Of a DNA stretch of 64,000 nucleotides, positions 39,349 through 64,000 are shown piece by piece (position 1 is the first letter of the stretch; each line of letters opens with the position of its first letter). The position numbers were made by a program, and so were the translations under genes. Where the stretch lies: contig JACPKS010000084.1 of NCBI GenBank assembly GCA_016186905.1, positions 2,261 through 66,260 of the forward strand, read 5' to 3'. The DNA is from Deltaproteobacteria bacterium (GTDB taxonomy: Bacteria; Bdellovibrionota; UBA1018; UBA923). The notes under the pieces are model-generated. The model had not been told where the DNA came from. It worked only from the letters and a program-made list of their open reading frames with translations, and did not search any database.

Positions 39349-39356
39349 CATCAAAT

Positions 39357-41253: not shown

Positions 41254-41255
41254 AC

Positions 41256-42979: not shown

Positions 42980-43013
42980 TTAATGTGAACGATCAAAGGA
43001 TTCAGGGTGTTTC

Positions 43014-46002: not shown

Positions 46003-46004
46003 AA

Positions 46005-46289
46005 ATGGAACATGACACTCATCCGGCCGTACGGAATAAAACATTTATTAGCGTGTGGGCGATTCTTGTCGCTCTTACGATGGCTTCGGTAGGCGCGTCG
46101 AGTGTCCACGCGGGCACGGCGAGCCTCTTGGTTCCCTTGTTGATTGCCACCGTTAAAGCGAGTTTAGTGCTTTGGTTTTTCATGCATTTGAAATACGAAC
46201 GCGCTCTTTTCAAGGTCATGCTGCTCTTCCCGCTGGGTACGTTGGCCGTTATCATGGGTTTGACGTTCGTGGACACTTGGTTCAGGTAG
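46005..46289 (+). CDS. coxD: Cytochrome c oxidase subunit IV (caa3-type small subunit)
   Basis: 94 aa, two TM helices. Start ATG 46005; the ORF-track extension to 45942 overlaps coxC. Confidence 0.6.
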   Translation: MEHDTHPAVRNKTFISVWAILVALTMASVGASSVHAGTASLLVPLLIATVKASLVLWFFMHLKYERALFKVMLLFPLGTLAVIMGLTFVDTWFR

Positions 46290-46295
46290 GAGAAC

Positions 46296-47222
46296 ATGAT
46301 TACCGGGTGGCCAAATCTCTGGAATTCGACCGATAACGCCTTCTATTTCATCATTGCCATATCCATCGTTCTTTTGCTCGGGATCATGGCAACAATGATT
46401 TTTTTCGTGTTTCGATATTCTCGCAGCCGAAACCCGCGACCAACCAACATCGAACACAACGCCTGGCTTGAGATCTTGTGGACGGCCATCCCCACGGTTC
46501 TGGTGCTCGCGATGTTTTGGGTCGGCTGGAAGGGTTTCATTTACAAAAGGACTGTTCCCGCGGGGGCCATGCAAGTCAAGGTAACCGGACGGATGTGGTC
46601 GTGGTCGTTCGAATACGAAAACGGCAAAATCAGTTCGGTATTAAAGCTGCCATTCGGAAAGCCCGTAAAACTTCTGATTACTTCGGCGGACGTGGTGCAC
46701 GGCGTTTTTATTCCCGCGTTTCGCGTAAAAGAAGACGCCGTTCCCGGCAGAGACACCTACTTGTGGTTTCAACCCGATAAGACCGGGGAGTTCGAGCTTT
46801 TCTGCAGCGAATTTTGCGGGACTGGCCATACAAAGATGGTGAGCACAGTAGAGATTATTCCCGAAAATGAGTTTGCGGTCTGGCTTCAGCAAAAAGAGAC
46901 CCCCGCTTTGGCGCAAGGCTTGTCGCAAGCGGGGCTCGGTGCCGAGCTGGTGCGCGCGAAGGGTTGCGTTGCTTGTCACAGTACCGACGGAACCGCGGCC
47001 ACTGGCCCGACGTTCAAGGGGCTATGGGGCAAGAAGGAGACCGTGCTCAGGGGATCTCAGGAAGCGCAGGTGACCGTGGATGAGAGCTTTGCGAGGAGCA
47101 AGATTTTTTCTCCTGAAAAGGAGCGCATCAAGGGATTTCCGCCCATCATGCCGTCGCAACGGGGCGTTCTATCCGAAAAAGAGGCGGCAGCGATCGTGGA
47201 GTATTTCAAAACACTGCGATGA
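46296..47222 (+). CDS. coxB: Cytochrome c oxidase subunit II fused to a C-terminal cytochrome c domain (caa3-type)
   Basis: CuA site FCSEFCGTGHTKM plus C-terminal CVACHSTDG heme c site. Confidence 0.9.
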   Translation: MITGWPNLWNSTDNAFYFIIAISIVLLLGIMATMIFFVFRYSRSRNPRPTNIEHNAWLEILWTAIPTVLVLAMFWVGWKGFIYKRTVPAGAMQVKVTGRMWSWSFEYENGKISSVLKLPFGKPVKLLITSADVVHGVFIPAFRVKEDAVPGRDTYLWFQPDKTGEFELFCSEFCGTGHTKMVSTVEIIPENEFAVWLQQKETPALAQGLSQAGLGAELVRAKGCVACHSTDGTAATGPTFKGLWGKKETVLRGSQEAQVTVDESFARSKIFSPEKERIKGFPPIMPSQRGVLSEKEAAAIVEYFKTLR

Positions 47223-48076
47223 GGAACCTTCTCGTTTTCACCAAAGCCCGCATCTCCTTGCTGGCCGGGTTCTCGGCCGCGACTGGGTACCTTCTTTCTC
47301 CCGGGAGATCTTCAGGCGATCTATTCTTGCTCTTCGCGGGAGTCGTGATCCTGGCGGGCGGCTCGTCCGCGCTCAATCAGTGGCAAGAATGGCGAACGGA
47401 CGCTTTGATGGAGCGGACGCGGAATCGCCCGATCCCAAGAAAAGCGTATTCTCCTGATCATGGCTTTCTGGTCGCGGCCGTGTTTTTGCTGCTGGGAATC
47501 TCGCTCGTCCAGATCGTGAGCGCGGGAGCCGCCACCGCGCTCGGCGCATTGGCGGTTCTTTGGTACAACGGCGTCTACACTCCGTTGAAACGCGTGACCG
47601 CGTTTGCCGCGGTTCCCGGGGGATTGGTCGGCGCGATTCCGCCGGCGATCGGTTTTGTCACGGGCGGCGGCGCCCTTGGCGATCCACGCATTCTCGGCGT
47701 GGCCGCCGTTCTTTTTATCTGGCAGATTCCGCATTTCTGGCTGTTGCTGCTGAGATTCGGCCCCGACTACGAGCAAGCCGGATTTCCGACGCTGACTCAG
47801 GCGCTGGGAGAAAATGGCGTGAAGCGGGTTACCGTGACGTGGTTGTTCGCTACCGTGGCTTTCATGTTCGCGCTCCCGCTTTTTGGAGTCGTGCCGGCGG
47901 GTTATTTGCTCGTTTCAGTCAGTCCGGTTGCCATCTGGTTATTGGTCAGGGCTTGGAAGCTCCTGCGCGAAACCGAGGAAATGTCCGCGAAACTGGGTGG
48001 CCAGGCGTTTCATGCCATTAACCTGCTGCTTCTGGTACTGATGGGATCGCTGTCTTTGTCGCGGTGGCTTTCCTGA
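47219..48076 (+). CDS. ctaB: Protoheme IX farnesyltransferase (heme O synthase, UbiA family)
   Basis: UbiA prenyltransferase TM pattern, DAxxDR-like RNRPIPRK region. Downstream of cox genes with ATGA overlap. Confidence 0.85.
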   Translation: MRNLLVFTKARISLLAGFSAATGYLLSPGRSSGDLFLLFAGVVILAGGSSALNQWQEWRTDALMERTRNRPIPRKAYSPDHGFLVAAVFLLLGISLVQIVSAGAATALGALAVLWYNGVYTPLKRVTAFAAVPGGLVGAIPPAIGFVTGGGALGDPRILGVAAVLFIWQIPHFWLLLLRFGPDYEQAGFPTLTQALGENGVKRVTVTWLFATVAFMFALPLFGVVPAGYLLVSVSPVAIWLLVRAWKLLRETEEMSAKLGGQAFHAINLLLLVLMGSLSLSRWLS

Positions 48077-52496: not shown

Positions 52497-55400
52497 TTAC
52501 CGCAACGGGATGGCAGGCAGGCCGTTTCCGAGCGAAAGAGGCGTTAGGCCGATATTCTGGCTGTGTCCTAATCCTAGCTGGCCGTATCCATTGTAGCCCC
52601 AGCATTTGATCTGGTTGTCGTCGAGAGTCGCGCAGGTGTGGTGTGTGCCGGCCGCGATGTCGATGGCTTTGAGCGTTCTGCCGCCCGCGGCGGTTCCTGC
52701 GCCAGTATCGGTTCCGAGGTCCACCGCGACAAGCCGGTCACCCATGTCGCCCGAGTAGTAGCCGTGGTTTTGGCCGCCGTCGGGAATGCCAAGTTGGCCG
52801 TTAACGCCGTAGCCCCAGCACTTCACCCGTCCGTTGTCGAGCAGCGCGCAGGAATGGTAGAAACCAAGTGCTAGTTTTTTGGCCGTACGATTCGTGCCGA
52901 GATCGACATAAGGAAGAGAATCGCCCATCTCGTGGCCGGACGTCCCGCTATCGCCGCGGTTTACCGAATTGCCGGTTCCGAGCTGACCGTAGCCGTTGTA
53001 TCCCCAGCACTTCACTTTGCTGTTGCCCAAAATCGCGCAATTGTGCCCATACCCTGAGTCGACTTGAACCGCGGTAAGCGCGCCTCCCGTGCCGTCGCCA
53101 TTTACGGTGCCGAGATTAACGTACGGAAGGTTATCGCCCATCTGGTGGCCGGCGGCAGCACTATCGCCGCGCGGGGTGGTATCGCCAAGGCCTAGCTCCC
53201 CGTTGGAATTGTAGCCCCAGCACTTCACGCGGCCATTGCTCAGGATCGCGCAGTTATTGAGCACGCCGGAAGCCTGCACGGCCACGAGCGCGCCGCCCGT
53301 GCCGTCGCCGCCCACCGTTCCGAGGTTGACGTATGGAAGATTATCGCCCATCGTGCCGCCTTGGCCGCGATAGTCGGTATTTTCGTAGCCAAGCGAGCCC
53401 CAAGCGCCGTAGCCCCAGCATTTCAGGTGCGAGCCGGAAGCACTGTCATCCAAGATCGCGCACGCGTGATAAGCGGTTTGCTTGATGGACTTCACCGTGC
53501 GCCCGGTTCCGAGATCGACGTAGGAAAGCGCATCGCCCATCTGGTGGCCCGCGGCCGGCGAGTCGCCGCGGTTGGTTCCGTCGCCAAGGCCCAAATTGTA
53601 ATATCCGGTGTTGTAGCCGAAGCATTTCATTTTTCCGCTGTTCATCAGCGTGCAAACGGATTGGGCGCCGGCTCCCATTTTCACGTCGATGGCGTAATCA
53701 GTGCTCGAAAGATTGATGGACTCAAGGCTTGGCCCCATCTCGCCAGGCTCATCGCCGACCCATGGATTGCGCGAAACCGAGTGGTAGGAATCGTTGCCTG
53801 AGGCCTGACCCCAGCACTTCACGCGCCCGCTCTGCAGCAGCGCGCAGGTGTGGGAGTTGCCGGTTGAGATCATCGCTGGTTTGTCGTTTACGCCGCTGCC
53901 TAAGTTTATTTGCGGAAGGTCGTCGCCCATCAGGTGCCCGGCGCTCATGTTGTCTCCGCGATTGACGGTGTCGCCAAGGCCTAGCTGGCCGTAGGCGTTG
54001 TAGCCCCAGCACTTCATCCCCCCGTCATCCAGAATCACGCAGCTGTGGTTTGCGCCCATGGCGATCGCGGTGGCCGTGCGCCCAGTGCCCAGGCTCACGT
54101 ACGGAAGATTATCGCCCATCGTGCCGGCGGCATTTCCGTAATTGGTGGTGTTGCCAAGGCCAAGCTCGCCGCTTCCGTTGTTGCCCCAGCATTTAACGAG
54201 ATCATTGTCGAGAATCGCGCAAGCCTGGAGGTGGCCTACGGCAAGATGCTTTGCCGTGCGCCCCGTGCCAAGGCTCACGTAGGGGAGGTTGTCTCCCATC
54301 GTGCCCAGGCTACCGCCGCGATCAGTCGTATTTTCGTAGCCAAGATTGCCCCAGTCGTTTCGGCCCCAGCATTTCACGCGCGAGCCTGCTGCGCCGCTAT
54401 CGAGGAGCGCGCAGGTGAAATCGTAGCCTGCCGCGATTTCGACCGCGGTGCGGCCGGTTCCAAGATCGACGGGGCCTGTCGGAGTGGTGCGGGTCGCGGT
54501 GTCGCCAAGACCTAGCTCACCGTAGCCGTTGTAGCCCCAGCACTTCACGGTGCCGTCATCCAGGAGCGCGCAGGCATGGAGGCGGCCTACGGCAACCTGG
54601 ACTGCCGTGCGTCCGGCTCCCAGGTTCAAAAACGGCATGTTGTCGCCCGAAGTGCTTAGGTAGTAGCCGTAAGCCGTAGTGTCGCCCGTGCCAAGATTGC
54701 TGTAGTAGTTGGGACCCCAGCATTTCACTTTCCCGGCATTTGCACCCGAGAAAATCGCGCAGTTAAAACCGTTGTAGTCGTTGGTGAGACTGCTTTTGAT
54801 CGAGGCCACGGTTTTTCCGGCGCCAAAGAGCGCGAAGGGAAGGAGATTTCCCATGCTCCAGAGACTCGCACCGTAGCTCGTGGCATTGGTGGCGTTTGCT
54901 AGAGCGCCGTAGCCGTTGTAGCCAAAGCATTTGACATTTCCGTCGGTGAGCACGGCACAGGTGTAGTATTGGCCGGCCAGGATGGATGTCGCAAGCCACG
55001 GGTTGTTCAAGCTATCCGTGCCGAAATCGACTGCCGGCAAATTATCGCCCATTTGTGAGGACTTTGCTCCGAGATAAGCTTTCTCGTTTCCGAGCTGGCC
55101 GTAATTATTTCGGCCAAAGCATTTCGTGTTGCTTGAAGTCGAGGAAGTCGGGTCGACAACACACGTGGAAGCGTCGCCGGCGGCGATTTTTCGGGGAAGA
55201 AAAACGTGGATCGTGATGGTCGTCACGTGACTGTTGGAATCGGAAACCTGCACGGTAGTACTCGCGGGGCTTGAGGTGAGGGTCGCGGGCGCCGTGAATT
55301 GCGCCGTGTTTGTGCCGGTGTTGAGTGTGCCGCCGCCTGCGAGCAGCGTGAACGAGTAGGGCGCGCTCCCACCTGAAAGCTCGAGGGTAAGCGTGCCTCC

Positions 55401-58400
55401 AGCCACGAGCGAGCGGGCGGTGGTGACAGGCTGATCGAAATCGTAGACCAGATTATCGCTGCTGGTCGCGCCGGCATAGACGTTGTCTTGCGGAACGGTG
55501 GGGGATAGCGTGTAAGGAAGATAATCGCCCAAGGTAAGCGGGTTGTCGCCCGTGTTGGCTGTTGCCATTCCGATTCCAAGCTGGCCCCAGGCGTTGTAAC
55601 CCCAGCATTTGACGCCATTGTTGTCGAGAACGGCGCAGGTGTAATAGTTACCGGCGAAAACGTCGAGCGCGGTTCTTCCGGTGCCAAGATTTACGGCACG
55701 AAGATTATCGCCCATCTCGCCGGCCTGATTGCCGATGTTGTCGTTATTGCCGCTCTTATCGCCAAGGCCTAGCTGGCCCCAGGCGTTGTAGCCCCAGCAC
55801 TTGATCTGATTGTTGTCGAGTACGGCGCAGGTGTGATAAATGCCGGTCACGACTTTTTTGGCGGTTCTTCCGGTTCCGAGATCGACAAAGGGAAGGGCGT
55901 TTCCCATCAGGTGGCCGGCGGCAGTGCTGTCGCCGCGATTGACGGTGTCGCCAATGCCTAGCTGGCCGTAGATGTTGTAGCCCCAGCACTTGATTTTGCC
56001 GCCCGCGATGAGCGCGCAAGAGTGGGTATAGGAGGTGGAAAGCTGCGTCACCTGCCAGGGATTGTTCGAGCCATCAGTGCCCAGATTCACGAAAGGAAGG
56101 TTGTCGCCCATCGTATTAGGAGCATTACCTCGTGGGTCGCTGTTGCCATACCCGAGGTTTCCCCAAGGATTCGGACCGTAGGGACTGTTGCCCCAGCACT
56201 TCACACCTCCGTTTGAAAGTAGCGCGCAGTGATACGCGTAATAACCGCTGCTGACTTGCTTTGCGACCAGGGGCGTGCCGCCGATTCCGTCCACCGTTCC
56301 GAGATTCACGTAGGGAAGAGTGACGAGATCTTGAAAATAATAATAACCATTCGTGTTCTCAAGGCCTAGCTGTCCGTATTCGTTTGCGCCCCAGCATTTC
56401 AGATGCGAATTCTGGCCTGCCCCGTCGTCTAGAATCGCGCATGTGCTTGAATTATTGGACGCACCCGTGGCAACCTGTTTTACGGTGCGGCCAAAACCCA
56501 CGAACGCGGTGGGGAGCCCGTCGCCCATCGTGCCTAGCTTGTCGCCATGGTAGGGAAAGCTGTTGGCTGGCGGCTCGCCGCCGGTTCCAAGCTGGCCGGC
56601 GCTGTTTGCGCCCCAACATTTGAGTTCTCCGGTGTTGAGAATCGAACAGGTGTACTGGTCGTTGCTGGAGTTGGCTTCGATGTCGGTGGCATAGCGGTTT
56701 GTTCCAAGATTGACCGTCTTGCTGCCGGCCATCTCGCCGGGTGCGTCGCCAAGTGTCGCGTTCTCATTGCCAAGCGCTCCGTAGTCGGTCGTGTCGGTTT
56801 GCACCGAGCCCCAGCACTTGACCGTGTTGTTGTCGAGAAGCGCGCAGGTGTTGTCGTGCTGGGGAGCGATGTCTTTGACCGTACGGCCCGAACCGAGGTC
56901 CACGTAGGCAAGGTTGTCGCCCATATTGTTTAAGCTTCCACCGACGTTATTTAAGTGGCCAAGACCTAGCTGGGCGAAAGTATTGAGGCCCCAGCATTTC
57001 AGATGCGAGTTTAAGCCTGCGGCGTCGTCCAGAATCGCGCAGGTGTGGTGGTTGCCCAGTTTTATTTTCTTCACGGTGCGGCCTGTACCCAGGCTTACGT
57101 AGGGGAGCTGATCGCCCATCTCGCCGGCTACCGCGCCGATGCTATACCAAGGGCTCGGGTACTGGGAGGAGCTGGAATTGATGCCGCTTCCAACCTGCCC
57201 GTAATTGTTGTTGCCCCAGCATTTGAGTTTATCGTTATCGAGGATCGCGCAGGTGTGCTCGGAGCCGCATGAAATCGCCTTAGCCGTGCGGCCCGTCCCA
57301 AGATCGACAAACGCAAGCGCGTTGCCCATTTCGCCGGCTTCGTCTCCGATGTTGGCTTTGCTTGCGGAATTATCTCCAAGACCTAGCTGGCCGTAGTTGT
57401 TTCTTCCCCAGCACTTGACCTTGTCGTTGTTCAAAATCGCGCAGGTGTGGCCAAAACCCGCGGCGATGGCTTTGGCGTAGTAGGGATTGCCGCTTCCATT
57501 TCCGGCATCATCGCCGAGATCGACGATGGGCCCTGGCGAGAAGCGGTTGGCCGTGTCGCCGTATCCAAGCTGGCCTTGGTAACCGTTGTACCCCCAGCAC
57601 GTCACGCGCGAGCCTGAGGCACCGCTGTCCAGGATCGCGCAGGCATGAAGCGAGCCGTAGGCCAGGTCCGTTGCCGTGCGGCCCAAGCCGAGATTTACGA
57701 ACGGGATATTGTCGCCGCTTATGAAAGGATAATAACCGTAACCGTAAGAGTAATACCAACTGGTGCTGTCCCCAACGCCTACGGTTCCGTAGGAGTTATT
57801 GCCCCAACATCGCACCTTGCCAAGATCGGTGCCATTCAAGATCGCGCAGCCGCCGCTGCCCTGGGGATTTGCGGCGATTTTGAACGCCGTTTTTCCGGTT
57901 CCCAAAAGCAGATACGGAAGATGATCGCCCATCTCGTTGGGAAAGAGTCCGAAGTTCCGGCCAGAGCTGGCGTTTCCAAGCGCGCCGCTACCGTTGTAGC
58001 CCCAGCCCTTGGCCGTGCCGCTCGTGAACTTCACGAACGCTCCCGCATACCCGCCCACGATTGAATCCGGCACGAGGCCTGTGCCGAGTTTTATGGGAGA
58101 AAGCGCATCCCCCATTTCGCCCGCTTGATCGCCGATCGCGAAGGTTTCATCCCCGCGCTGGCCATACTGGGAACGTCCCCAGCAGTTGACCGTGCTTGAC
58201 GTGAGGCTCGCGCGCGTGAGCGCGCACGCGTGCTCGGAACCCAGTGCCAGTTTTCTCGGAACGAACGCGTGGACCGTGGTGTCTGAGGTATTCCCCCCGC
58301 CGTCGGTTACGCGAATCACGCTGTCTCCCGGAGCGGCGCCGGCGGTAAACGTCGTGCTTGTAGGGCCCGAGCTCAAAAACCCGCCGCCCAGCACGATCGA

Positions 58401-59321
58401 AAACGCGTAGGGCGAGATTCCGCCGGTCACCGCAAACTGCGCGTTCTCGCCCACGGCCACGTATTTTACCGCGGGAGAGACGGCCGGCCCCTGATAACTG
58501 TACACGGTGGCGTCGGCTGTGGAACCCGCCGCATCGGTCACGCGCAAAGCCGAAGTGGACGTGGCGGCCGCCGCGGTGAAAAGTCCGCCTGAGGCCACGG
58601 TGCCGCCGCCCGCGACCAATGTGTAGGTGTACGGCCCCGTACCTCCGGTAGCCGCAAACTGCGCGGTCTGGCCAAACGGCACGTAGCGCGGAGTCGGAGA
58701 AATCGAGAGCACGGGTGTTACCGCGACGTTTGATGAGGCAGAGGCTCCCCCAAAATCGGTCACGCGAATGACGACACTGCTGCTGGTTGCGGGCGCGGTG
58801 TACGCTCCGGTGTTCGGATTAATCGCGCCGAGGCCTGAAACGACCGTAAACGTATACGGAGCAAGACCGCCGCTTGCCGTGAACGTGAAGCTGGCGTTCG
58901 TGCCCAGGGTTTTCGACGTGGGATTGATGGTCAGAAGCTCGCCTACGTAGACGACGGCGTAAGCCGTGTTGGCGGCCGCGTCGGCGACCTTGATCATCGC
59001 CTGTCCCGGATTGGCCGGCGCCTGGTAAAGACCGGCGCTCGAGACGGTTCCGATGCCCGAGGAAATCGAAAACGCATAAGGAGGGGTTCCTCCGGTGACG
59101 ACGAATTGCTGGGATTGATTGACCGAAAGATTCCTGGCCGCGGGCACGATCTGCAGAAGAGTGACGGTGACGGTTGCTTTCGAGGATGATCCAAGATTCC
59201 TGGTCGAAGCGGCCGAGGGGGAAGAGACGCTGGTCACCTCATCTTGTGTTGCGAGGCTGCAAGCTTGAAAGAGCGTTGCAATCATGAGGACCGCCGCGAT
59301 GGCGGCGCAACGCGTATTCAT
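52497..59321 (-). CDS. Giant secreted/lipoprotein-type RCC1-repeat protein (2274 aa): signal peptide, about 5 He_PIG/Ig-like domains, about 14 RCC1 blades, 1-2 Ig-like domains, about 14 RCC1 blades
   Basis: Start taken at MNTRCAAIAAVLMIATLFQAC (ATG 59321-59319, overlapping the stop of the upstream gene as ATGA). Repeated TGGT/SPYxF/S Ig-like motif. About 28 repeats of the VKCWGxNxxGQLGxGD consensus counted in the translation. Confidence 0.8.
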   Translation of the reverse strand: MNTRCAAIAAVLMIATLFQACSLATQDEVTSVSSPSAASTRNLGSSSKATVTVTLLQIVPAARNLSVNQSQQFVVTGGTPPYAFSISSGIGTVSSAGLYQAPANPGQAMIKVADAAANTAYAVVYVGELLTINPTSKTLGTNASFTFTASGGLAPYTFTVVSGLGAINPNTGAYTAPATSSSVVIRVTDFGGASASSNVAVTPVLSISPTPRYVPFGQTAQFAATGGTGPYTYTLVAGGGTVASGGLFTAAAATSTSALRVTDAAGSTADATVYSYQGPAVSPAVKYVAVGENAQFAVTGGISPYAFSIVLGGGFLSSGPTSTTFTAGAAPGDSVIRVTDGGGNTSDTTVHAFVPRKLALGSEHACALTRASLTSSTVNCWGRSQYGQRGDETFAIGDQAGEMGDALSPIKLGTGLVPDSIVGGYAGAFVKFTSGTAKGWGYNGSGALGNASSGRNFGLFPNEMGDHLPYLLLGTGKTAFKIAANPQGSGGCAILNGTDLGKVRCWGNNSYGTVGVGDSTSWYYSYGYGYYPFISGDNIPFVNLGLGRTATDLAYGSLHACAILDSGASGSRVTCWGYNGYQGQLGYGDTANRFSPGPIVDLGDDAGNGSGNPYYAKAIAAGFGHTCAILNNDKVKCWGRNNYGQLGLGDNSASKANIGDEAGEMGNALAFVDLGTGRTAKAISCGSEHTCAILDNDKLKCWGNNNYGQVGSGINSSSSQYPSPWYSIGAVAGEMGDQLPYVSLGTGRTVKKIKLGNHHTCAILDDAAGLNSHLKCWGLNTFAQLGLGHLNNVGGSLNNMGDNLAYVDLGSGRTVKDIAPQHDNTCALLDNNTVKCWGSVQTDTTDYGALGNENATLGDAPGEMAGSKTVNLGTNRYATDIEANSSNDQYTCSILNTGELKCWGANSAGQLGTGGEPPANSFPYHGDKLGTMGDGLPTAFVGFGRTVKQVATGASNNSSTCAILDDGAGQNSHLKCWGANEYGQLGLENTNGYYYFQDLVTLPYVNLGTVDGIGGTPLVAKQVSSGYYAYHCALLSNGGVKCWGNSPYGPNPWGNLGYGNSDPRGNAPNTMGDNLPFVNLGTDGSNNPWQVTQLSTSYTHSCALIAGGKIKCWGYNIYGQLGIGDTVNRGDSTAAGHLMGNALPFVDLGTGRTAKKVVTGIYHTCAVLDNNQIKCWGYNAWGQLGLGDKSGNNDNIGNQAGEMGDNLRAVNLGTGRTALDVFAGNYYTCAVLDNNGVKCWGYNAWGQLGIGMATANTGDNPLTLGDYLPYTLSPTVPQDNVYAGATSSDNLVYDFDQPVTTARSLVAGGTLTLELSGGSAPYSFTLLAGGGTLNTGTNTAQFTAPATLTSSPASTTVQVSDSNSHVTTITIHVFLPRKIAAGDASTCVVDPTSSTSSNTKCFGRNNYGQLGNEKAYLGAKSSQMGDNLPAVDFGTDSLNNPWLATSILAGQYYTCAVLTDGNVKCFGYNGYGALANATNATSYGASLWSMGNLLPFALFGAGKTVASIKSSLTNDYNGFNCAIFSGANAGKVKCWGPNYYSNLGTGDTTAYGYYLSTSGDNMPFLNLGAGRTAVQVAVGRLHACALLDDGTVKCWGYNGYGELGLGDTATRTTPTGPVDLGTGRTAVEIAAGYDFTCALLDSGAAGSRVKCWGRNDWGNLGYENTTDRGGSLGTMGDNLPYVSLGTGRTAKHLAVGHLQACAILDNDLVKCWGNNGSGELGLGNTTNYGNAAGTMGDNLPYVSLGTGRTATAIAMGANHSCVILDDGGMKCWGYNAYGQLGLGDTVNRGDNMSAGHLMGDDLPQINLGSGVNDKPAMISTGNSHTCALLQSGRVKCWGQASGNDSYHSVSRNPWVGDEPGEMGPSLESINLSSTDYAIDVKMGAGAQSVCTLMNSGKMKCFGYNTGYYNLGLGDGTNRGDSPAAGHQMGDALSYVDLGTGRTVKSIKQTAYHACAILDDSASGSHLKCWGYGAWGSLGYENTDYRGQGGTMGDNLPYVNLGTVGGDGTGGALVAVQASGVLNNCAILSNGRVKCWGYNSNGELGLGDTTPRGDSAAAGHQMGDNLPYVNLGTVNGDGTGGALTAVQVDSGYGHNCAILGNSKVKCWGYNGYGQLGTGNSVNRGDSGTSGHEMGDSLPYVDLGTNRTAKKLALGFYHSCALLDNGRVKCWGYGVNGQLGIPDGGQNHGYYSGDMGDRLVAVDLGTDTGAGTAAGGRTLKAIDIAAGTHHTCATLDDNQIKCWGYNGYGQLGLGHSQNIGLTPLSLGNGLPAIPLR

Positions 59322-62300
59322 AGCCCCTCCAGCGCCGGCAGAAAGTCGCCGATGCCAAGCGGGGTCGTTCCCCTGAAAATCGTGTCTCCAAGTCCAAGCC
59401 TTCCGTCGGCGTTCCATCCCCAGCACTTGACCGAGTTGTCGTCGAGCACCGCGCAGGTTCTGCTTCCGCTGCTTGCGAAAATATCGAGAGCGGTTCTTCC
59501 GGTTCCGAGATTGACGAAGGGAAGGTGATCGCCGATCTGGGCGGCCGCGCAGCCGCGGTTTGTGGTGTCGCCAAGACCTAGCTCGCCATAAGAGTTGTAG
59601 CCCCAGCACTTTAGCTGGCCGTTTTTTTGGCCGCCCGAAGTGATCGCACAGGCATACGAATTGCCCGCGGAAATTTTTGTCGCAAGCAGCGGGCCTCCCG
59701 TACCGTCGCCGTTTATCGTTCCAAGATCGCCGTAGGCAAGATTAGCGCCCATATCGCCTGCTTCATCGCCGATAGCAGCTTTGCTTGCGCTGCAGTTGCC
59801 GAGGAGGCTTGTGTCGTAGCCGTTGTAGCCCCAGCATTTGAATCTGCCGCTGTCGAAAAGGGCACATGTATTGTAGTAACCCACGGAAAGCTGCGTGACC
59901 TTAAGCGGGTTGCTCCCATCAGTGCCAAGATCGACAAACGGAAGATTGTTTCCCATTGTGCCGCTAACGTGTCCCATGTAGCTATTCGTGGTTCCGATCC
60001 CAAGCTGGCCGTAATTATTGTAGCCCCAGCATTTCACGCGCTGGTTGTTCAAAAGCGCGCACGTAAAGGCGCTGGTGCCCGAGCCGATCTGGGTGGCGTA
60101 GTATGGATTTCCCGTTCCATTTCCGGCATCATCGCCAAGATTCACAGTGTCTAGATAATCGCCAAGCTGGTTTCCGTAGGTGCGGTTATTCGTATCTTCA
60201 TAGCCAAGATTGCCGTAGCCGTTGTAGCCAAAGCACTTCACGCGTGACTTGGCCGCCCCGCTATCCAGGATCACGCAGGTGTAGCTACCTGCTGTCGCGA
60301 CCGCTTTGACCGTTCTTCCAGTCCCCACCAGGGCGATAGGCAGCGCGTCCCCCATGTCTCCTGTGCCGGGGCGGTCGCCACGGTTATTGGTGTCGCCCGT
60401 CCCGAGATTGCCGTAACTGGCGTTGTAGCCCCAGCACTTCATGTTCCCGTCATCGAGAATCGCGCAGGTTGAATACACATCGCTTTTAATCGAAGTGGCG
60501 TAGCGACTGGTTCCCAGATCTACTGTACTCAAACGCGCCATTTCGCCCGGAGCGTCTCCCATTGAGAGCGCTTCGTTTCCCAGGTTTCCGTACTGGGGAC
60601 CGTCAAATCCGCCCCAGCATTTGACCGTGCGGTCGTTTAGGAGCGCGCAAGTGTCGAGGCCGCCGGCCTTGATGTCGAGCGCGGTTTTTCCTGTTCCTAG
60701 CTCCACGTACGGCAGAAAATCCCCCATCGTGAGCGGACTCGTGCCCATCGAGGCGTTGTGGCCAAGGCCTAGCTGGCCGTAGTAGTTGTAGCCCCAGCAT
60801 TTGGCTTTGGAGTTGTTCAACGTCGCGCAAACGTGGCTCACGCCAGCGGATATTTTCACGGCGTAAAGAGATCCTCCCGTGCCGTCGCCGTTTATCGTTC
60901 CAAGATCGACGGTGGACAGAGCATCGCCAAGGCTTGCCGGTGAATTGCCGTGATCGTTACTATCCCCAAGGCCAAGCTGTCCGTAGGGGTTGTAGCCGAA
61001 ACATTTCACGCGCGAGCCTCCCGCGCCACTGTCGAGAATCGCGCAGGTAAAACTGTTGCCCGTCACAAGCTGGACTACGGTTCTTCCCGCGCCAAGATCC
61101 ACGTACGGAAGAGCATCGCCCATCTCATGACCGACAGCACCGCTGTCGCCGCGATTTACAGTATCGCCCGTGCCGAGATGACCATAGCCGTTATAGCCCC
61201 AACATTTCATTTTTCCGTTCGTGAAGGCGGCGCACGAGTGATTGCTACCCACGGCGACTTGGACGACGCTGAGATCTCCGCCCGTGCCGTTGCCGTTCAC
61301 CGTTCCGAGATTGATACCGGGAAGATTGTCGTCCATCTGGTGGCCGGCGGCAGTACTGTCGCCACGGTTGGTGGTGTCTCCAAGGCCTAGCTGTCCGTAA
61401 CCGTTGTAGCCCCAGCATTTGGCGCGACCGTTGTCGAGTGCCGCACAGCTATGAACGCCGCCGACTGCGATGTCGATAGCCGTGCGGCCAGCTCCCAGAT
61501 TCACGAATGGCATGTTGTCACCGGTGTTGGCTGGAATGGCACCGTAGTGCGTCGTGTTCTCGGTGCCAAGCGAACCGTAATCATTGTAGCCAAAGCACTT
61601 GACCTTTCCCGCATCGGCGCCACCCAGAATCGCGCAGCTATGAGAGTTGGCGTTGTAGCTGGGGCTGCTTACGAGTTTGGTAACTGTCACTCCGGTGCCC
61701 AGATCGGAGTACCAGAGGTTATCGCCCATCTGGTCTGTATAGGCTCCGCGGTGCTGACTTTCTGAATCCGGTGGATGCGCGTAGATGCCCTCGGAGCCTT
61801 GCCCAAGCACTCCGTAGGAATTGTAGCCCCAGCACTTGAATCTTCCGTTCGAGAGAAGCGCGCAGTTGTTTTCGTAGCCCGCGACAATCGCGGCAACACT
61901 TACTCCCGTGTCGAAGTTTCCGAGGTTGATCGGAGCAATACTGTCTCCCATTTCGCCGGGTGCGTCCCCGACGTAAAGATTGGCAGTGCCGAGCTGACCG
62001 TAGGTATTTCGTCCCCAGCACTTTACGGTGCTTGAGGTGGGACTATCCCAGATGAGCGCGCAGGAGTGGTAGTAGCCAAGCGCTAGACTTTTGGGAAGAA
62101 ACACGTCCACCTGCGCGTCCGAAATATACGAATTCGCGTCGGTCACGCGAACGGTGACCTGGGCGGGCACGGCAGGCGCGGTGTACGCGCCGGTTCCCGC
62201 ATTGATCGTCCCGCCGGAGCCGATGATCGAATACGCGTAAGGGCCGGTGCCGCCGCTGGCGCTGAAGGTAAACGAAGTGCCCGCCGCGAGTTTTTTAGCC

Positions 62301-63154
62301 GCGGGCGAGATCTGCGGGCCGGCATAGACGTTGACGGTGGCGTCGGCTGTGAGGTTTTGCGAATCGGTTACGCGCACAAGACTTGTTTGTGGCGTGCTTG
62401 GCGCGCTGAAGACTCCGCTAGGGCTTACCGTTCCTCCGCCGGCAACCAGCGTGTAGATGTAGGGAGGAATTCCGCCGGTCGCCGCGAACGTGACGGAATG
62501 GCCCGTCGCTGCGTAGGTGAGTGCTGGCAAAATCGAAAGCGGAGCCGCGATGAGTGCCGAGCCGTAGGCACGGTTGCCGGCCGAGTCGGTGACTTCGATG
62601 ATGTCGGTGCCGGCGGTACCCGGCGCGGTATACGCTCCGGCCGCGGTGATCGTGCCGGTTCCGGCGGCGACTTTGTAGGTGTACGGGGACATTCCACCCG
62701 TGGCGCCGAAGGTGAACAGCGCGCCGGCGGCCAGCGTCTTCGAGGTTGGCGAAAGAGCAAGGGTCGTGGTGATGCTGATGACGGCAAACGCGCTGTTTGC
62801 GCGCGAGTCGGAGATGCGCAAAACCGTGATGCCGGCCACATTGGGCGCGGTATAGATCCCGCCCGAGGTGATCGTTCCCAAACCGCTGTCGACGGAGTAG
62901 GCGTAAGGGGCGCTTCCGCCACTAGCCGTGAAGGTGGCGCTCTCGTTTAAGTAAAGTGTTTTTGAAGCGGGAGTGACCAGAAGAAGGCTGACCGAGAGGC
63001 TTGCGTCGGTGGTGGCGGGCTCCTGGGTCGAAGTGGCGGAAGAAACACCCGTTACATTATTCAAGTCAGTTTGAGACGGGGACTTGCACCCTTGTAAAAA
63101 CAAAAGCAAAAGCGATGTCATCGCAATGAAAAGGGTGGGATGAATGGAGCCCAT
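59318..63154 (-). CDS. Giant secreted/lipoprotein-type RCC1-repeat protein (about 1278 aa): signal peptide, about 5 He_PIG/Ig-like domains, about 14 RCC1 blades
   Basis: Start taken at the ATG giving MGSIHPTLFIAMTSLLLLFLQGCK (GGAGG 11 nt upstream); the ORF-track ATG 63217 is an alternative. About 14 CWGYNxYGQLGLG-type repeats. Confidence 0.8.
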   Translation of the reverse strand: MGSIHPTLFIAMTSLLLLFLQGCKSPSQTDLNNVTGVSSATSTQEPATTDASLSVSLLLVTPASKTLYLNESATFTASGGSAPYAYSVDSGLGTITSGGIYTAPNVAGITVLRISDSRANSAFAVISITTTLALSPTSKTLAAGALFTFGATGGMSPYTYKVAAGTGTITAAGAYTAPGTAGTDIIEVTDSAGNRAYGSALIAAPLSILPALTYAATGHSVTFAATGGIPPYIYTLVAGGGTVSPSGVFSAPSTPQTSLVRVTDSQNLTADATVNVYAGPQISPAAKKLAAGTSFTFSASGGTGPYAYSIIGSGGTINAGTGAYTAPAVPAQVTVRVTDANSYISDAQVDVFLPKSLALGYYHSCALIWDSPTSSTVKCWGRNTYGQLGTANLYVGDAPGEMGDSIAPINLGNFDTGVSVAAIVAGYENNCALLSNGRFKCWGYNSYGVLGQGSEGIYAHPPDSESQHRGAYTDQMGDNLWYSDLGTGVTVTKLVSSPSYNANSHSCAILGGADAGKVKCFGYNDYGSLGTENTTHYGAIPANTGDNMPFVNLGAGRTAIDIAVGGVHSCAALDNGRAKCWGYNGYGQLGLGDTTNRGDSTAAGHQMDDNLPGINLGTVNGNGTGGDLSVVQVAVGSNHSCAAFTNGKMKCWGYNGYGHLGTGDTVNRGDSGAVGHEMGDALPYVDLGAGRTVVQLVTGNSFTCAILDSGAGGSRVKCFGYNPYGQLGLGDSNDHGNSPASLGDALSTVDLGTINGDGTGGSLYAVKISAGVSHVCATLNNSKAKCWGYNYYGQLGLGHNASMGTSPLTMGDFLPYVELGTGKTALDIKAGGLDTCALLNDRTVKCWGGFDGPQYGNLGNEALSMGDAPGEMARLSTVDLGTSRYATSIKSDVYSTCAILDDGNMKCWGYNASYGNLGTGDTNNRGDRPGTGDMGDALPIALVGTGRTVKAVATAGSYTCVILDSGAAKSRVKCFGYNGYGNLGYEDTNNRTYGNQLGDYLDTVNLGDDAGNGTGNPYYATQIGSGTSAFTCALLNNQRVKCWGYNNYGQLGIGTTNSYMGHVSGTMGNNLPFVDLGTDGSNPLKVTQLSVGYYNTCALFDSGRFKCWGYNGYDTSLLGNCSASKAAIGDEAGDMGANLAYGDLGTINGDGTGGPLLATKISAGNSYACAITSGGQKNGQLKCWGYNSYGELGLGDTTNRGCAAAQIGDHLPFVNLGTGRTALDIFASSGSRTCAVLDDNSVKCWGWNADGRLGLGDTIFRGTTPLGIGDFLPALEGL

Positions 63155-63340
63155 TGAAAAAAGCGCCTCCAGGTACTTAACTATCGGTCTTTTTATGTAA
63201 ATACTTGATATAAACACTGTACTATTTTATCTGCAAGCGATGTGGAATCTCAAAAAAACATGACTTTGATACTCAAAGGGTTTTTAAAATTTGTTAATTT
63301 ATATGAACTATCACCGTGCTTCGCCCTGAAAAACCAAGAA

Positions 63341-63368
63341 TTGCACTTGAAGGCGAGTTTGATATAAT
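63341..63368 (+). promoter_or_regulatory. Sigma70-type promoter TTGCAC-N16-TATAAT for phd/vapC, followed by GTTACC-N5-GTTACC direct repeat and GGAGG RBS
   Basis: -35 at 63341-63346, -10 at 63363-63368. ATG of phd at 63402. Confidence 0.5.
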
Positions 63369-63401
63369 CTAGACAGGCTAGCTGTTACCGGGAGGTTACC
63401 G

Positions 63402-63677
63402 ATGTCGGGAATATGGCAACTACAGGATGCGAAAAACCGCTTTAGTGAAGTCGTCGACAAGGCCATCGATGAAGGCCCGCAGACCGTCACGCGCAGAGGC
63501 GAGGAGGCTGTTGTCGTGATCGCGGCGCGCGAATTCCGCGATCTTGTTCGCCCCAAAACTCCGCTTGCCGAGTTCTTCGCGCGTTCGCCGCTCGTGAAAT
63601 TCGCGGTCGAGCTGGAAAAGGAATTGCAAAAGGAATTGCAGAGGAGCCGTGATGTGGGAAGGAACCTGAAGTTTTGA
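63402..63677 (+). CDS. Phd/YefM-family antitoxin
   Basis: WQLQDAKNRFSEVVDKAIDEGPQTVTRRGEEAVVVIAARE matches the Phd/YefM N-terminal fold pattern. 91 aa. Confidence 0.8.
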   Translation: MSGIWQLQDAKNRFSEVVDKAIDEGPQTVTRRGEEAVVVIAAREFRDLVRPKTPLAEFFARSPLVKFAVELEKELQKELQRSRDVGRNLKF

Positions 63678-64000
63678 AATACCTGCTCGATACGTGCCTC
63701 ATCTCGGAGCTCATGCGAACCCGCCCTGATGCAGGGGTTTTGGACTGGGTTCGCAACCACGACGAGATCGCGCTCTACTTGAGCGCGCTCACGCTCGGGG
63801 AGATCGAAAAGGGGATCGCAAAGCTCGCTGCCGGTCAGAAAGCTGATCAGAAGGCCAAAAGAGCAAAGCTCGAGACATGGTTGCGCGATGACCTGCGAAT
63901 GCGTTTCGAAGGCCGAATCCTGCCGGTTTCGGATGAGATTTGTCTTCGTTGGGGGAGAGTCTCAGCCGACGCCGAACTTCGAGGCGAGAAGATACCGGTC
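63673..64000 (+). CDS. vapC: VapC PIN-domain toxin (3'-truncated by window end)
   Basis: LKYLLDTCLISEL... (first PIN Asp in LLDT). TTGA overlap with the phd stop. Runs open to the window end. Confidence 0.7.

What the first reader, a model, noticed from the sequence alone, without database searches (positions are those of the whole stretch)
52497..63217. Tandem, translationally coupled giant RCC1-propeller / Ig-domain cell-surface proteins (about 10.7 kb, roughly 42 RCC1 blades)
Two adjacent minus-strand genes are joined by an ATGA start/stop overlap at 59318-59321. Both products have N-terminal signal/lipoprotein-like peptides, then about 5 He_PIG-type Ig-like domains (repeated 'TASGG(S/T)xPY(A/T)(F/Y)S' motif), then long arrays of RCC1-type blades with a very regular VKCWGYNxYGQLGLGDT consensus. 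By my count of the translation, gene 1 has about 28 blades split 14+14 by an internal Ig-like segment and gene 2 has about 14; these are multiples of 7 consistent with 4+2 seven-bladed propellers. Gene 1 looks like an ancient fusion of two gene-2-like units. No recognisable C-terminal sorting domain (no LPXTG, PEP-CTERM or T9SS CTD) is present. The locus has its own AT-rich 5' region (63218-63400) and is bracketed by an ACAD/BKACE metabolic cluster and a phd/vapC TA pair. RCC1 repeats are eukaryote-typical; in bacteria they occur in effectors and in uncharacterised giant surface proteins. This arrangement (propeller count, coupling, lipid anchor) is not a described system, and could be a predatory/adhesive surface apparatus or an S-layer-like array.
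Basis: partly seen in the sequence, partly recalled or inferred. Interest (0 to 1): 0.8.

Follow-up and report, generated by a model that had tools for sequence, protein, structure and literature searches.

The report
Paired giant RCC1-propeller lipoproteins
Two overlapping genes encode very large envelope-anchored lipoproteins, each an Ig-like stalk carrying seven-bladed RCC1-type propellers (six in all); this protein pair is widespread but unstudied in Bdellovibrio-like bacteria, so the locus is real and tidy but not a new kind of system.

Summary

Two details fail. The Ig domains are not He_PIG by HMM. There are four N-terminal Ig domains per protein, not about five.

The locus is already in GenBank as two hypothetical proteins of a "Deltaproteobacteria" MAG, and gene A's deposited start omits the signal peptide. 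It belongs to a large uncharacterised family in Bdellovibrionota: pairs of about 1190 and 1176 aa with the same ATGA overlap. The three 14-blade units here are lineage-specific duplicates, and B is an in-frame fusion of two of them.

In seven relatives the pair lies beside a conserved operon: TPR lipoprotein, MotA/PomA-like, MotB-like, an unknown 570-660 aa protein and a small outer-membrane barrel. That operon is absent from this window.

Most likely function, by inference only: envelope-tethered multivalent binding proteins. Nothing was tested experimentally. I rate it a new variant of a known kind, of moderate interest.

The parts
63224..63253 (-). Promoter-like site (TTGAGA, 18 nt spacer, TAAAAT) in the lower-GC spacer upstream of gene A
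   Evidence: Consensus scan, 10 of 12 matches; only 1 site found against 0.8 expected in shuffles, so this is weak evidence. GC is 0.51-0.54 here against about 0.58-0.62 in the genes.
63166..63170 (-). Shine-Dalgarno GGAGG, 11 nt before the ATG of gene A
   Evidence: Read from the sequence.
59318..63154 (-). Gene A, 1278 aa. Order of parts: signal peptide with lipobox Cys23, disordered tether, four Ig-like domains, 14 RCC1 blades. GenBank MBI2606672.1 is annotated 30 aa too short.
   Evidence: Homologues keep the lipobox Cys.
63086..63154 (-). Gene A signal peptide and lipobox (MGSIHPTLFIAMTSLLLLFLQG|C); the +2 residue is Lys
   Evidence: Sequence. Matching leaders occur in 14 relatives' genes. 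No dedicated SPII predictor was available.
62108..62980 (-). Gene A: four tandem Ig-like beta-sandwich domains (aa ~59-349), each with the xGGxxPYxYS motif. They follow a disordered Ser/Thr/Pro tether (aa ~27-53).
   Evidence: AF2 pLDDT 88.7, four beta-sandwich units, tether pLDDT below 50. Foldseek hits are cadherin/Ig tandem arrays. No He_PIG hit.
60665..62107 (-). Gene A propeller 1 (blades 1-7, aa ~350-830)
59321..60664 (-). Gene A propeller 2 (blades 8-14, aa ~831-1278); it ends at the stop codon
59318..59321 (-). ATGA stop/start overlap between genes A and B. GGAGG lies at 59330-59326, just upstream.
   Evidence: The same ATGA junction is found in L001, L004, L069, L070 and L071.
52497..59321 (-). 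Gene B, 2274 aa (GenBank MBI2606671.1). Order of parts: lipoprotein signal (Cys21), tether, four Ig-like domains, 14 blades, linker plus one Ig-like domain, 14 blades.
58287..59153 (-). Gene B N-terminal Ig-like stalk (four domains, aa ~57-345)
   Evidence: 45% identical to gene A's stalk. Motifs at aa 76, 150, 225 and 299. Sub-threshold SprB and BiPBP_C hits. Not modelled directly.
55536..58286 (-). Gene B first 14-blade unit (aa ~346-1262), inferred to be two propellers. Blade 2 is degenerate (AKGWG, both Cys lost).
   Evidence: 52% identical to gene A's 14-blade unit, with blade-for-blade correspondence. Not modelled directly.
55227..55535 (-). Gene B internal linker plus a single Ig-like domain (aa ~1263-1365). 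It is the remnant of the stalk of the fused downstream unit.
   Evidence: Aligns to Ig4 of gene A at 37% identity. SprB-repeat hit E 2e-5, below threshold.
52500..55226 (-). Gene B second 14-blade unit (aa ~1366-2274), inferred to be two propellers
   Evidence: 46-50% identical to the other two units. Blade list.

Best explanation
This is a two-gene operon for two very large lipoproteins exported by the Sec pathway. After signal-peptidase II cleavage, each protein would hang from a membrane by its N-terminal lipidated cysteine. The parts then follow in order: a roughly 30-residue disordered Ser/Thr/Pro tether, a rod of four Ig-like domains, and rigid seven-bladed RCC1-like propellers. Protein A has two propellers. 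Protein B has four, with one Ig-like domain between the second and third.

Each blade keeps two cysteines about 10-15 residues apart. They are probably one disulfide per blade, which fits folding outside the cytoplasm. The ATGA overlap, with a ribosome-binding site inside the end of gene A, would keep the two proteins co-expressed.

The three 14-blade units arose by duplication within this lineage. Gene B formed when one duplicate lost its stop codon, signal peptide and first three Ig domains and fused in frame.

Inferred function, not shown: envelope-anchored multivalent binding modules built as stalk plus head. They would most probably be displayed from the outer membrane of a Bdellovibrionota-like bacterium, and the propeller faces would bind a surface, polymer or partner protein.
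For: Shown:
- Gene structure and overlap.
- RCC1 HMM hits far above threshold.
- 42 blades with consensus CWGYN.YGqLGlGdt.nrGd.pg.MGDnLPyVnLGTGrTA..Ia.G..htCAiLdnG.VK.
- Four Ig-like domains after a disordered tether.
- Lipobox-type leaders conserved in all 14 relatives' genes examined, with the Cys nearly invariant in the alignments.
- Two invariant Cys per blade across 29 proteins. Mature A has 30 Cys, an even number.
- The ATGA junction is conserved in five relatives.
- Units A, B1 and B2 cluster together at 46-52% identity. Their blades correspond position for position in 32 of 84 comparisons, against 6 expected by chance.
- Nucleotide repeats are only 60-80% identical, so the duplications are old and the assembly is not collapsed.

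Supporting the binding or display reading:
- The same Ig-like repeat forms the stalk of other Bdellovibrionota lipoproteins that carry different C-terminal heads.
- Tandem duplication of such genes recurs independently in several lineages.
- An RCC1-repeat protein was found specifically in Myxococcus outer-membrane vesicles (PMC4158809).
- The structural neighbours that act outside the cell are binders: BLIP-II, and the plant CRINKLY4 ectodomain.
Against: - No ligand, localisation or expression data exist for any family member. Literature searches found none.
- The lipoboxes are non-canonical at position -2 (LQGC, FQAC), and no SPII predictor was run.
- Which membrane holds each protein is unknown. 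Gene A has Lys at +2, which marks inner-membrane retention in Myxococcus (PMC3222651). Surface exposure is therefore an assumption.
- In relatives the pair sits beside a flagellar-type MotAB operon. That could point to a periplasmic or structural role rather than adhesion.
- Only gene A's propellers were modelled. Gene B's four propellers are inferred from homology.
Confidence: 0.5

Rival explanations
1. The pair is a periplasmic or outer-membrane accessory (scaffold, ring or cargo) of a MotAB-type, proton-driven envelope machine. That machine could be the flagellar motor or an unknown device. Here it would be encoded elsewhere in the genome.
For: - In seven distinct relatives (L001, L004, L006, L007, L069 partly, L070, L071) the Ig + 14-blade pair lies next to a conserved operon. 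Its genes are a TPR lipoprotein, a MotA/PomA-like protein, a MotB-like protein with an OmpA domain, a 570-660 aa unknown, and a ~200 aa outer-membrane beta-barrel.
- The remaining flanks differ between these relatives, and the gene order is rearranged in L006/L007.
- The MotA-like profile is closest to solved flagellar stators (E 1e-50) rather than TolQ (6e-5).
- Gene A's +2 Lys is compatible with inner-membrane retention.
Against: - The window has no homologue of any of the five genes (tblastn at E<=1).
- None of the 120 best MotA-like proteins lies on a 66,838-bp contig.
- The operon also exists without an adjacent RCC1 pair on a 2.9-Mb scaffold (L147).
- Longer or single-gene family members lack it.
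- Gene proximity is not proof of a shared function.
Confidence: 0.22
2. The propellers are tight-binding protein inhibitors like BLIP-II. They would neutralise hydrolases, either the cell's own lytic enzymes or a competitor's, in the periplasm or at the surface.
Against: - BLIP-II is a single small soluble propeller. Nothing explains why an inhibitor would need a lipid anchor, a stalk and two to four propellers.
- No conserved hydrolase partner gene accompanies the family.
Confidence: 0.07
3. The proteins tile the cell surface as an S-layer-like lattice.
For: They are large, acidic (pI ~5-5.5), repetitive and exported, and there are two co-expressed paralogues.
Against: - There is no SLH or other S-layer anchoring domain and no Pfam hit beyond RCC1 and the weak Ig matches.
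- Lipid anchoring through a flexible tether is not typical of lattice proteins.
- Copy number and architecture vary widely between relatives.
Confidence: 0.04
4. The locus is an artefact: one gene split by a sequencing frameshift, or a repeat mis-assembly that created the 28-blade gene.
For: The source is a short-read MAG contig containing highly repetitive protein motifs.
Against: - Gene B opens with its own signal peptide exactly at the overlap, and five relatives have the same junction.
- The out-of-frame upstream extension of ORF B is Arg-rich nonsense.
- Repeats are only 60-80% identical at the DNA level, too divergent to collapse.
- The B1/B2 junction is a clean in-frame linker plus Ig domain.
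Confidence: 0.02
5. These are RCC1-repeat effectors injected into eukaryotic hosts, as in Legionella, that act on Ran GTPase.
For: They share the RCC1 repeat family. Legionella RCC1 effectors are the best-studied bacterial examples (citing Swart 2020).
Against: - Sec/lipoprotein leaders, a paired Cys in every blade and an Ig stalk indicate an envelope location.
- No secretion-system genes are nearby.
- The family is concentrated in Bdellovibrionota and other free-living groups.
Confidence: 0.01

Closest known systems
Uncharacterised 'RCC1 domain-containing protein / alpha-tubulin suppressor-like RCC1 family protein' lipoprotein pairs of Bdellovibrionota (e.g. P0052 and its neighbour; A2X86_17995 of Bdellovibrionales GWA2_49_15; HYV97_15515/15520 of Bdellovibrio sp.)
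   Same: - Same architecture: lipobox, tether, three or four Ig-like domains and 14 RCC1 blades.
- 36-41% identity over 96-100% of gene A.
- Arranged in tandem, with the ATGA overlap in five lineages.
   Different: - Here the second gene is a double-length fusion (28 blades plus an internal Ig). No other protein with that layout was found at high coverage.
- The three units are lineage-specific paralogues rather than the old g1/g2 pair.
- The neighbouring MotAB operon is missing.
Eukaryotic RCC1-like domains (UVR8, HERC1/HERC2 RLDs, RPGR, RCC1)
   Different: - The eukaryotic domains are cytosolic or nuclear single propellers without paired cysteines.
- Here the propellers are exported, lipid-anchored, in twos and fours, with a Cys pair and a GD..EMGD.LP insertion in nearly every blade.
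BLIP-II (Streptomyces beta-lactamase inhibitor protein II)
   Different: BLIP-II is a small soluble single propeller with short blades, no lipid anchor and no stalk. No inhibitor role is indicated here.
Plant CRINKLY4/ACR4 ectodomain propeller
   Different: It is part of a eukaryotic receptor kinase, with one propeller and no Ig stalk or lipid anchor.
Giant RCC1-repeat proteins of Oscillospiraceae (bioRxiv 10.1101/2023.11.21.568195) and other multi-propeller giants (P0122 3872 aa; Bacteriovorax L012 3819 aa; Poseidoniaceae archaeon L031 3528 aa with 39 blades)
   Same: Very long extracellular chains of RCC1 blades, predicted to lie outside the cell.
   Different: Those are single, much larger genes built almost wholly of RCC1 repeats. 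Here there are modest multiples of a defined 14-blade unit on an Ig stalk, with a lipid anchor.
Legionella RCC1-repeat effectors (LegG1/PieG/PpgA)
   Same: Bacterial proteins with RCC1 repeats.
   Different: They are T4SS-translocated cytosolic effectors acting on Ran. Here the proteins have Sec/lipoprotein leaders and cysteine-paired blades.

Membership tests
RCC1-like domain (RLD) beta-propeller superfamily (Pfam PF00415, PF13540, PF25390) | HMM match above the curated gathering score | tested here: met
   A: PF25390 275.5 bits (cut-off 150), PF13540 260.6 (22), PF00415 138 (21.7). B: 628.7, 482 and 200.1 bits.
RCC1-like domain (RLD) beta-propeller superfamily (Pfam PF00415, PF13540, PF25390) | Closed seven-bladed propeller fold | tested here: met
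RCC1-like domain (RLD) beta-propeller superfamily (Pfam PF00415, PF13540, PF25390) | Tandem repeats of ~50-70 residues with the G-x-N-x-x-GQLG signature, in multiples of seven | tested here: met
   42 blades of 57-79 residues, arranged 14+14+14.
Bacterial lipoproteins (signal peptidase II substrates) | N-terminal signal peptide ending in a lipobox with an invariant Cys at +1 | tested here: inconclusive
   The leaders end LQG|C (A) and FQA|C (B). Both have basic and hydrophobic regions, but Gln at -2 is non-canonical. The Cys is conserved in homologues. No SPII predictor was available.
Bacterial lipoproteins (signal peptidase II substrates) | Lipidation and membrane attachment | not testable with these tools
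   Needs globomycin sensitivity, palmitate labelling or mass spectrometry.
He_PIG putative Ig domain (PF05345) | HMM match to PF05345 | tested here: not met
   No hit at E<=10 on any of the three Ig segments. Only SprB repeat (21.8-27.6 bits, cut-off 28) and BiPBP_C (22.5 bits, cut-off 26.8) appear, both below threshold. An Ig-like beta-sandwich fold is confirmed by AF2 and Foldseek.
Bdellovibrionota paired 'Ig-stalk + 14-blade RCC1' lipoprotein operon (defined here from relatives) | Two adjacent same-strand genes with an ATGA overlap, each with a lipoprotein leader, an Ig stalk and RCC1 blades | tested here: met
Bdellovibrionota paired 'Ig-stalk + 14-blade RCC1' lipoprotein operon (defined here from relatives) | Each product ~1100-1220 aa with exactly 14 blades | tested here: not met
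   Gene A fits (1278 aa, 14 blades). Gene B is a fusion of 2274 aa with 28 blades.
Bdellovibrionota paired 'Ig-stalk + 14-blade RCC1' lipoprotein operon (defined here from relatives) | Adjacent operon of TPR lipoprotein, MotA-like, MotB-like, 570-660 aa protein and outer-membrane barrel | tested here: not met
   No homologue in the 64-kb window. Upstream lies a Phd/VapC pair. About 2.8 kb of the source contig lies outside the window and could not be retrieved.
Legionella-type RCC1-repeat effectors | Cytosolic protein without a Sec signal, delivered by a type IV secretion system | tested here: not met
   Sec/lipoprotein leaders and paired Cys in each blade. No T4SS genes were seen among the neighbours tested.
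Surface proteins with a C-terminal sorting signal (T9SS CTD, LPXTG, PEP-CTERM/MYXO-CTERM) | Recognisable C-terminal sorting domain or motif | tested here: not met
   Both proteins end with the last blade (…GDFLPALEGL*, …GNGLPAIPLR*). Pfam and NCBIfam find nothing there.
S-layer proteins | S-layer anchoring or lattice domain (e.g. SLH) | tested here: not met
   No such Pfam or NCBIfam match. Lattice formation itself cannot be tested here.

The most novel reading that the evidence does not exclude
The translationally coupled RCC1-propeller lipoprotein pair is the envelope or surface component of a so far undescribed machine in Bdellovibrionota. The machine would be powered by a flagellar-type MotA/MotB stator and built with a TPR lipoprotein, a small outer-membrane barrel and a 570-660 aa protein that gives faint FliG/MgtE_N-like signals. 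Possible forms are a motor-associated periplasmic scaffold or a stator-driven surface adhesin. The window's pair would be a fused variant that works with such an operon encoded elsewhere in the genome.
Probability: 0.2. Interest if true: 0.75.

Novelty: new variant of a known kind. Interest (0 to 1): 0.42.

Why it matters
Bacterial RCC1-repeat proteins are abundant, yet apart from Legionella effectors and BLIP-II almost none has a known function.

This locus gives a clean, well-modelled example of a recurrent design: a lipid anchor, a tether, an Ig rod and twin RCC1 propellers, made as a co-translated pair. It also shows how such genes grow, by duplication and in-frame fusion of whole 14-blade units.

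For Bdellovibrio-like bacteria, which must recognise surfaces and prey, these are plausible candidates for binding proteins. The link between the pair and a MotAB-type operon in relatives gives a concrete, testable lead to function.

A practical point: the public annotation of gene A omits its signal peptide, which would mislead localisation predictions.

Tried and rejected
- **He_PIG assignment.** I scanned the three Ig segments at E<=10 and found no PF05345 hit. Rejected.
- **NCBIfam naming of both proteins.** No family matched.
- **Recent duplication or gene conversion.** The DNA repeats are only 60-80% identical. Rejected.
- **Frameshift or single-gene artefact.** Rejected.
- **Orthology of A to the relatives' first gene and of B to their second.**
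  - Propeller trees place A, B1 and B2 together.
  - Stalk comparison is ambiguous. A is slightly closer to the first-gene type and shares its +2 Lys.
- **Retrieving the remaining ~2.8 kb of the source contig.** Exact-protein look-ups of gene A, P0001, P0121 and Phd gave nothing, or only 1-kb contigs.
- **Finding close relatives.** Genome and metagenome scans gave at best ~37-45% identity at full length.
- **Taxonomy beyond 'Deltaproteobacteria bacterium'.** Cluster look-ups of housekeeping proteins added nothing. Assignment to Bdellovibrionota rests only on where the full-length family occurs.
- **Searching for the MotAB operon.** Absent from the window and from the source contig among the top MotA-like hits.
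- **AFDB fold search.** The library was unavailable.
- **Literature on this family.** Searches found no functional study.
- **tRNA scan of the window.** None found.

Full report
**1. What is there**

The region holds two long minus-strand ORFs. The upstream one, gene A, runs to a TGA at 59320-59318. The downstream one, gene B, has its ATG at 59321-59319, so the four bases ATGA at 59318-59321 are shared. A GGAGG lies at 59330-59326.

ORF B is open for a further 96 codons upstream, but that stretch translates to Arg-rich nonsense. The ATG, by contrast, is followed at once by a signal peptide, MNTRCAAIAAVLMIATLFQAC.

ORF A is open from a GTG at 63217. Three things point instead to the ATG at 63154 (MGSIHPTLFIAMTSLLLLFLQGC):
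- GGAGG at 63170-63166;
- a -35/-10-like site at 63253-63224 (weak evidence);
- the leaders of homologues.

Gene A is then 1278 aa and gene B is 2274 aa. Both are in GenBank as hypothetical proteins of a 'Deltaproteobacteria bacterium' MAG, on a 66,838-bp contig (MBI2606672.1 and MBI2606671.1). The deposited gene A starts 30 residues too late and lacks its signal peptide.

**2. Domains**

Pfam matches RCC1-like families far above threshold in both proteins.

Counting the C[WF]G core gives 14 blades in A. In B it gives 27 plus one degenerate blade, so 28. These are split 14+14 by a segment that carries the Ig motif. The 42-blade consensus is CWGYN.YGqLGlGdt.nrGd.pg.MGDnLPyVnLGTGrTA..Ia.G..htCAiLdnG.VK, with blades of 57-79 residues.

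An AlphaFold2 model of gene A residues 346-1278, built with 28 homologues, is confident (pLDDT 87.9, pTM 0.83). Its best structural matches are complete seven-bladed RCC1-like propellers:

| Match | Score |
|---|---|

These come; Foldseek agrees with TM-target ~0.8. Fourteen blades therefore make two propellers. The high pTM for the whole 933-residue model suggests a fixed mutual orientation.

A second model, residues 24-350, has pLDDT 88.7. It shows a disordered tether (about residues 27-53) followed by four beta-sandwich domains. These resemble tandem Ig/cadherin arrays.

PF05345 is not hit even at E<=10, and only sub-threshold SprB-repeat and BiPBP_C matches appear. NCBIfam has no model for either protein. 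Neither protein has anything after the last blade.

**3. Signs of an extracytoplasmic life**

Alignment of 29 family members shows two invariant or nearly invariant cysteines in every blade (…xCAxL…KCWG…). Mature A has 30 Cys, which is 28 blade cysteines plus two extra. Mature B has 55. One disulfide per blade is the natural reading, though inferred, and it fits export.

All 14 relatives' genes examined also open with lipobox-type leaders.

Which membrane holds each protein cannot be decided. Gene A has Lys at +2 and gene B has Ser. In Myxococcus, +2 Lys goes with inner-membrane retention (PMC3222651). The rule in Bdellovibrionota is unknown.

**4. Evolution**

The six propeller-sized segments are 38-50% identical to one another. 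DNA repeats are only 60-80% identical. The duplications are therefore old, and assembly collapse is unlikely.

In a neighbour-joining tree, the three 14-blade units of this window (A, B1, B2) group together at 46-52% identity. They sit apart from the older first-gene and second-gene paralogues of relatives.

Blade-by-blade comparison supports duplication of whole units. The best match in another unit sits at the same position of 14 in 32 of 84 cases, against 6 expected by chance. Within a unit, an offset of 7 is not enriched.

B's internal Ig aligns with the fourth Ig of A. B's first unit ends where A and B themselves end (…GDYLPYTL…). Gene B is therefore an in-frame fusion in which a third copy lost its stop codon, leader and first three Ig domains.

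No other protein with this exact layout was found, although larger multi-propeller proteins exist.

**5. The family**

Gene A has more than 1000 homologues at E<=1e-10 among the candidates scored. Full-length matches (36-41% identity, 96-100% coverage, 1100-1220 aa) come from Bdellovibrionota MAGs: Bdellovibrionales, Bdellovibrio sp., Bacteriovoracaceae, Pseudobdellovibrio and Oligoflexia. The propeller part alone matches proteins in many phyla and in archaea.

In L001, L004, L069, L070 and L071 the same two-gene arrangement occurs with the same ATGA overlap. L006 and L007 have tandem pairs separated by 7-12 nt.

Tandem 14-blade RCC1 lipoproteins also occur in a Myxococcota MAG (three copies) and a Pseudomonadota MAG (two copies).

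The same Ig-like repeat builds 10-20-domain stalks in other Bdellovibrionota lipoproteins that carry unrelated C-terminal heads. This supports a 'stalk presents head' design.

**6. Context**

In this window the pair stands alone.
- Downstream, a convergent cluster of acyl-CoA dehydrogenase, carboxyltransferase, BKACE and enoyl-CoA hydratase ends 23 nt from gene B's stop.
- Upstream, a divergent Phd/VapC pair follows a 247-nt spacer.
- The rest of the window is ordinary chromosome, with EF-G, Lon and respiratory complexes.

In all seven relatives with a tandem pair and enough flank, the pair lies beside a conserved operon. Its genes are:
- a ~200 aa TPR lipoprotein;
- a MotA/PomA-like protein;
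- a MotB-like protein with plug and OmpA domains;
- a 570-660 aa protein without family assignment;
- a ~200 aa outer-membrane barrel.

The other flanks differ between relatives, and L006/L007 have a rearranged order. The stator protein is of the flagellar type (E 1e-50 to solved MotA/PomA, against 6e-5 to TolQ).

None of these five genes has a homologue in the window. No top MotA-like hit lies on the source contig. The operon can also occur without a neighbouring pair (L147). The link is therefore frequent but not obligatory, and it cannot be claimed for this locus. About 2.8 kb of the contig lies outside the window and could not be fetched.

**7. Mechanism**

Shown: the gene structure, the domain order and the propeller and Ig folds (gene A modelled, gene B by homology). 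Also shown are the conserved leaders and Cys pairs, the conserved coupling and the duplication history.

Inferred: lipidation, one disulfide per blade, co-translation at near-equal amounts, and a role as envelope-tethered multivalent binders.

I favour display from the outer membrane and binding of an external or envelope ligand (confidence about 0.5 for the whole statement). The reasons are:
- the tether-stalk-head design;
- the reuse of the stalk with other heads;
- the repeated lineage-specific duplication;
- the presence of an RCC1-repeat protein in Myxococcus outer-membrane vesicles (PMC4158809);
- the fact that the extracellular structural neighbours are binders.

The main rival is an accessory role in a MotAB-type machine (about 0.2). 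A BLIP-II-like inhibitor, an S-layer, an artefact and a eukaryote-directed effector are all unlikely.

**8. Novelty and score**

The fold, the repeat family and the existence of large exported bacterial RCC1 proteins are known (Stevens & Paoli 2008 and Swart 2020, as cited; PMC9218822). The proteins are already deposited.

What is not described in the papers searched:
- the conserved, translationally coupled pair in Bdellovibrionota;
- its frequent neighbourhood with a stator operon;
- the fused four-propeller variant here.

I rate this a new variant of a known kind, with interest 0.42. The most novel reading still open is that the pair belongs to an undescribed stator-linked envelope machine. 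I give that a probability of about 0.2, and it would deserve about 0.75 if true.

Noticed in passing
window 63065-63154 (-): The GenBank record for gene A (MBI2606672.1, 1248 aa, starting 'MNNVTG') begins 30 codons after the likely ATG. It therefore lacks the signal peptide and lipobox that all homologues have.
   Followed up: yes
L001 5238-9759; L004 5324-9748; L070 5478-9842; L071 1560-6048; L006 4875-8386 and 15383-16593; L007 914-4428 and 12045-13318; L147 9390-13755: A conserved five-gene operon lies next to the RCC1 pair in seven relatives but also occurs alone (L147). Its genes are a TPR lipoprotein, a MotA/PomA-like protein, a MotB-like protein with OmpA, an unassigned 570-660 aa protein and a ~200 aa outer-membrane barrel. 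It is absent from this window.
   Followed up: partly
L006 4875-6857 (-) and alignment A4: The 570-660 aa operon protein gives two independent but sub-threshold hits to the MgtE_N domain: Pfam PF03448 at E 0.0055, and PDB 8gps MgtE at E 0.061. From my own knowledge, not checked here, that domain is related to FliG. This hints at a stator-interacting domain.
   Followed up: no
L071 16913-17875 (-): A flagellin gene lies about 3.5 kb downstream of the RCC1 pair in one relative. This may be coincidence.
   Followed up: no
P0061, P0146, P0147 (proteins): The same Ig-like repeat (xGGxxPYxYS) forms stalks of roughly 10-20 domains in other lipobox-bearing Bdellovibrionota proteins. These carry unrelated C-terminal modules, such as an Lcl domain or a glycine-rich end. 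The stalk looks like a shared scaffold for variable heads.
   Followed up: partly
window 63086-63088 and 59259-59261 (lipobox Cys codons) and the following codons: Gene A has Lys at +2 after the lipobox Cys (C-K-S-P), as do the first genes of the pairs in L004, L069 and L070. Gene B has Ser (C-S-L-A). In Myxococcus, +2 Lys marks inner-membrane lipoproteins (PMC3222651), so the two products might sit in different membranes.
   Followed up: partly
window 63402-63677 (+) and 63674-64000 (+): A Phd/YefM antitoxin (PF02604, E 2e-13) is followed by an overlapping PIN/VapC toxin (PF01850, E 9e-8) that runs off the window end. The pair occupies the position where relatives have the MotAB-type operon.
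   Followed up: partly
L017 806-12400; L027 4136-11699; L031 6953-17539; L012 5381-16840: Similar genes occur outside this family. They include three tandem 14-blade RCC1 lipoproteins in a Myxococcota MAG and two in a Pseudomonadota MAG. There is also a 3528-aa protein with 39 blades in a Poseidoniaceae archaeon and a 3819-aa protein in Bacteriovorax.
   Followed up: no
window gene A aa 379, 846; gene B aa 380, 836, 1401, 1836: The first blade of each inferred propeller (blades 1 and 8 of A; 1, 8, 15 and 22 of B) lacks the usual GLGDT turn. Most of them carry a 'GDAPGEM'-like motif instead. This period-7 signature is consistent with seven-bladed units.
   Followed up: partly
window 36292-48076 (+): A respiratory gene block lies upstream of the acyl-CoA cluster. 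It comprises a molybdopterin/4Fe-4S protein (1018 aa), NrfD-like, SCO1/SenC, cytochrome oxidase subunits I and II and a UbiA-family prenyltransferase. The context is ordinary chromosome.
   Followed up: partly
window 4533-6236 (-) and 41825-42979 (+): Two sizeable ORFs (567 aa and 384 aa) have no Pfam match at E<=0.001.
   Followed up: no
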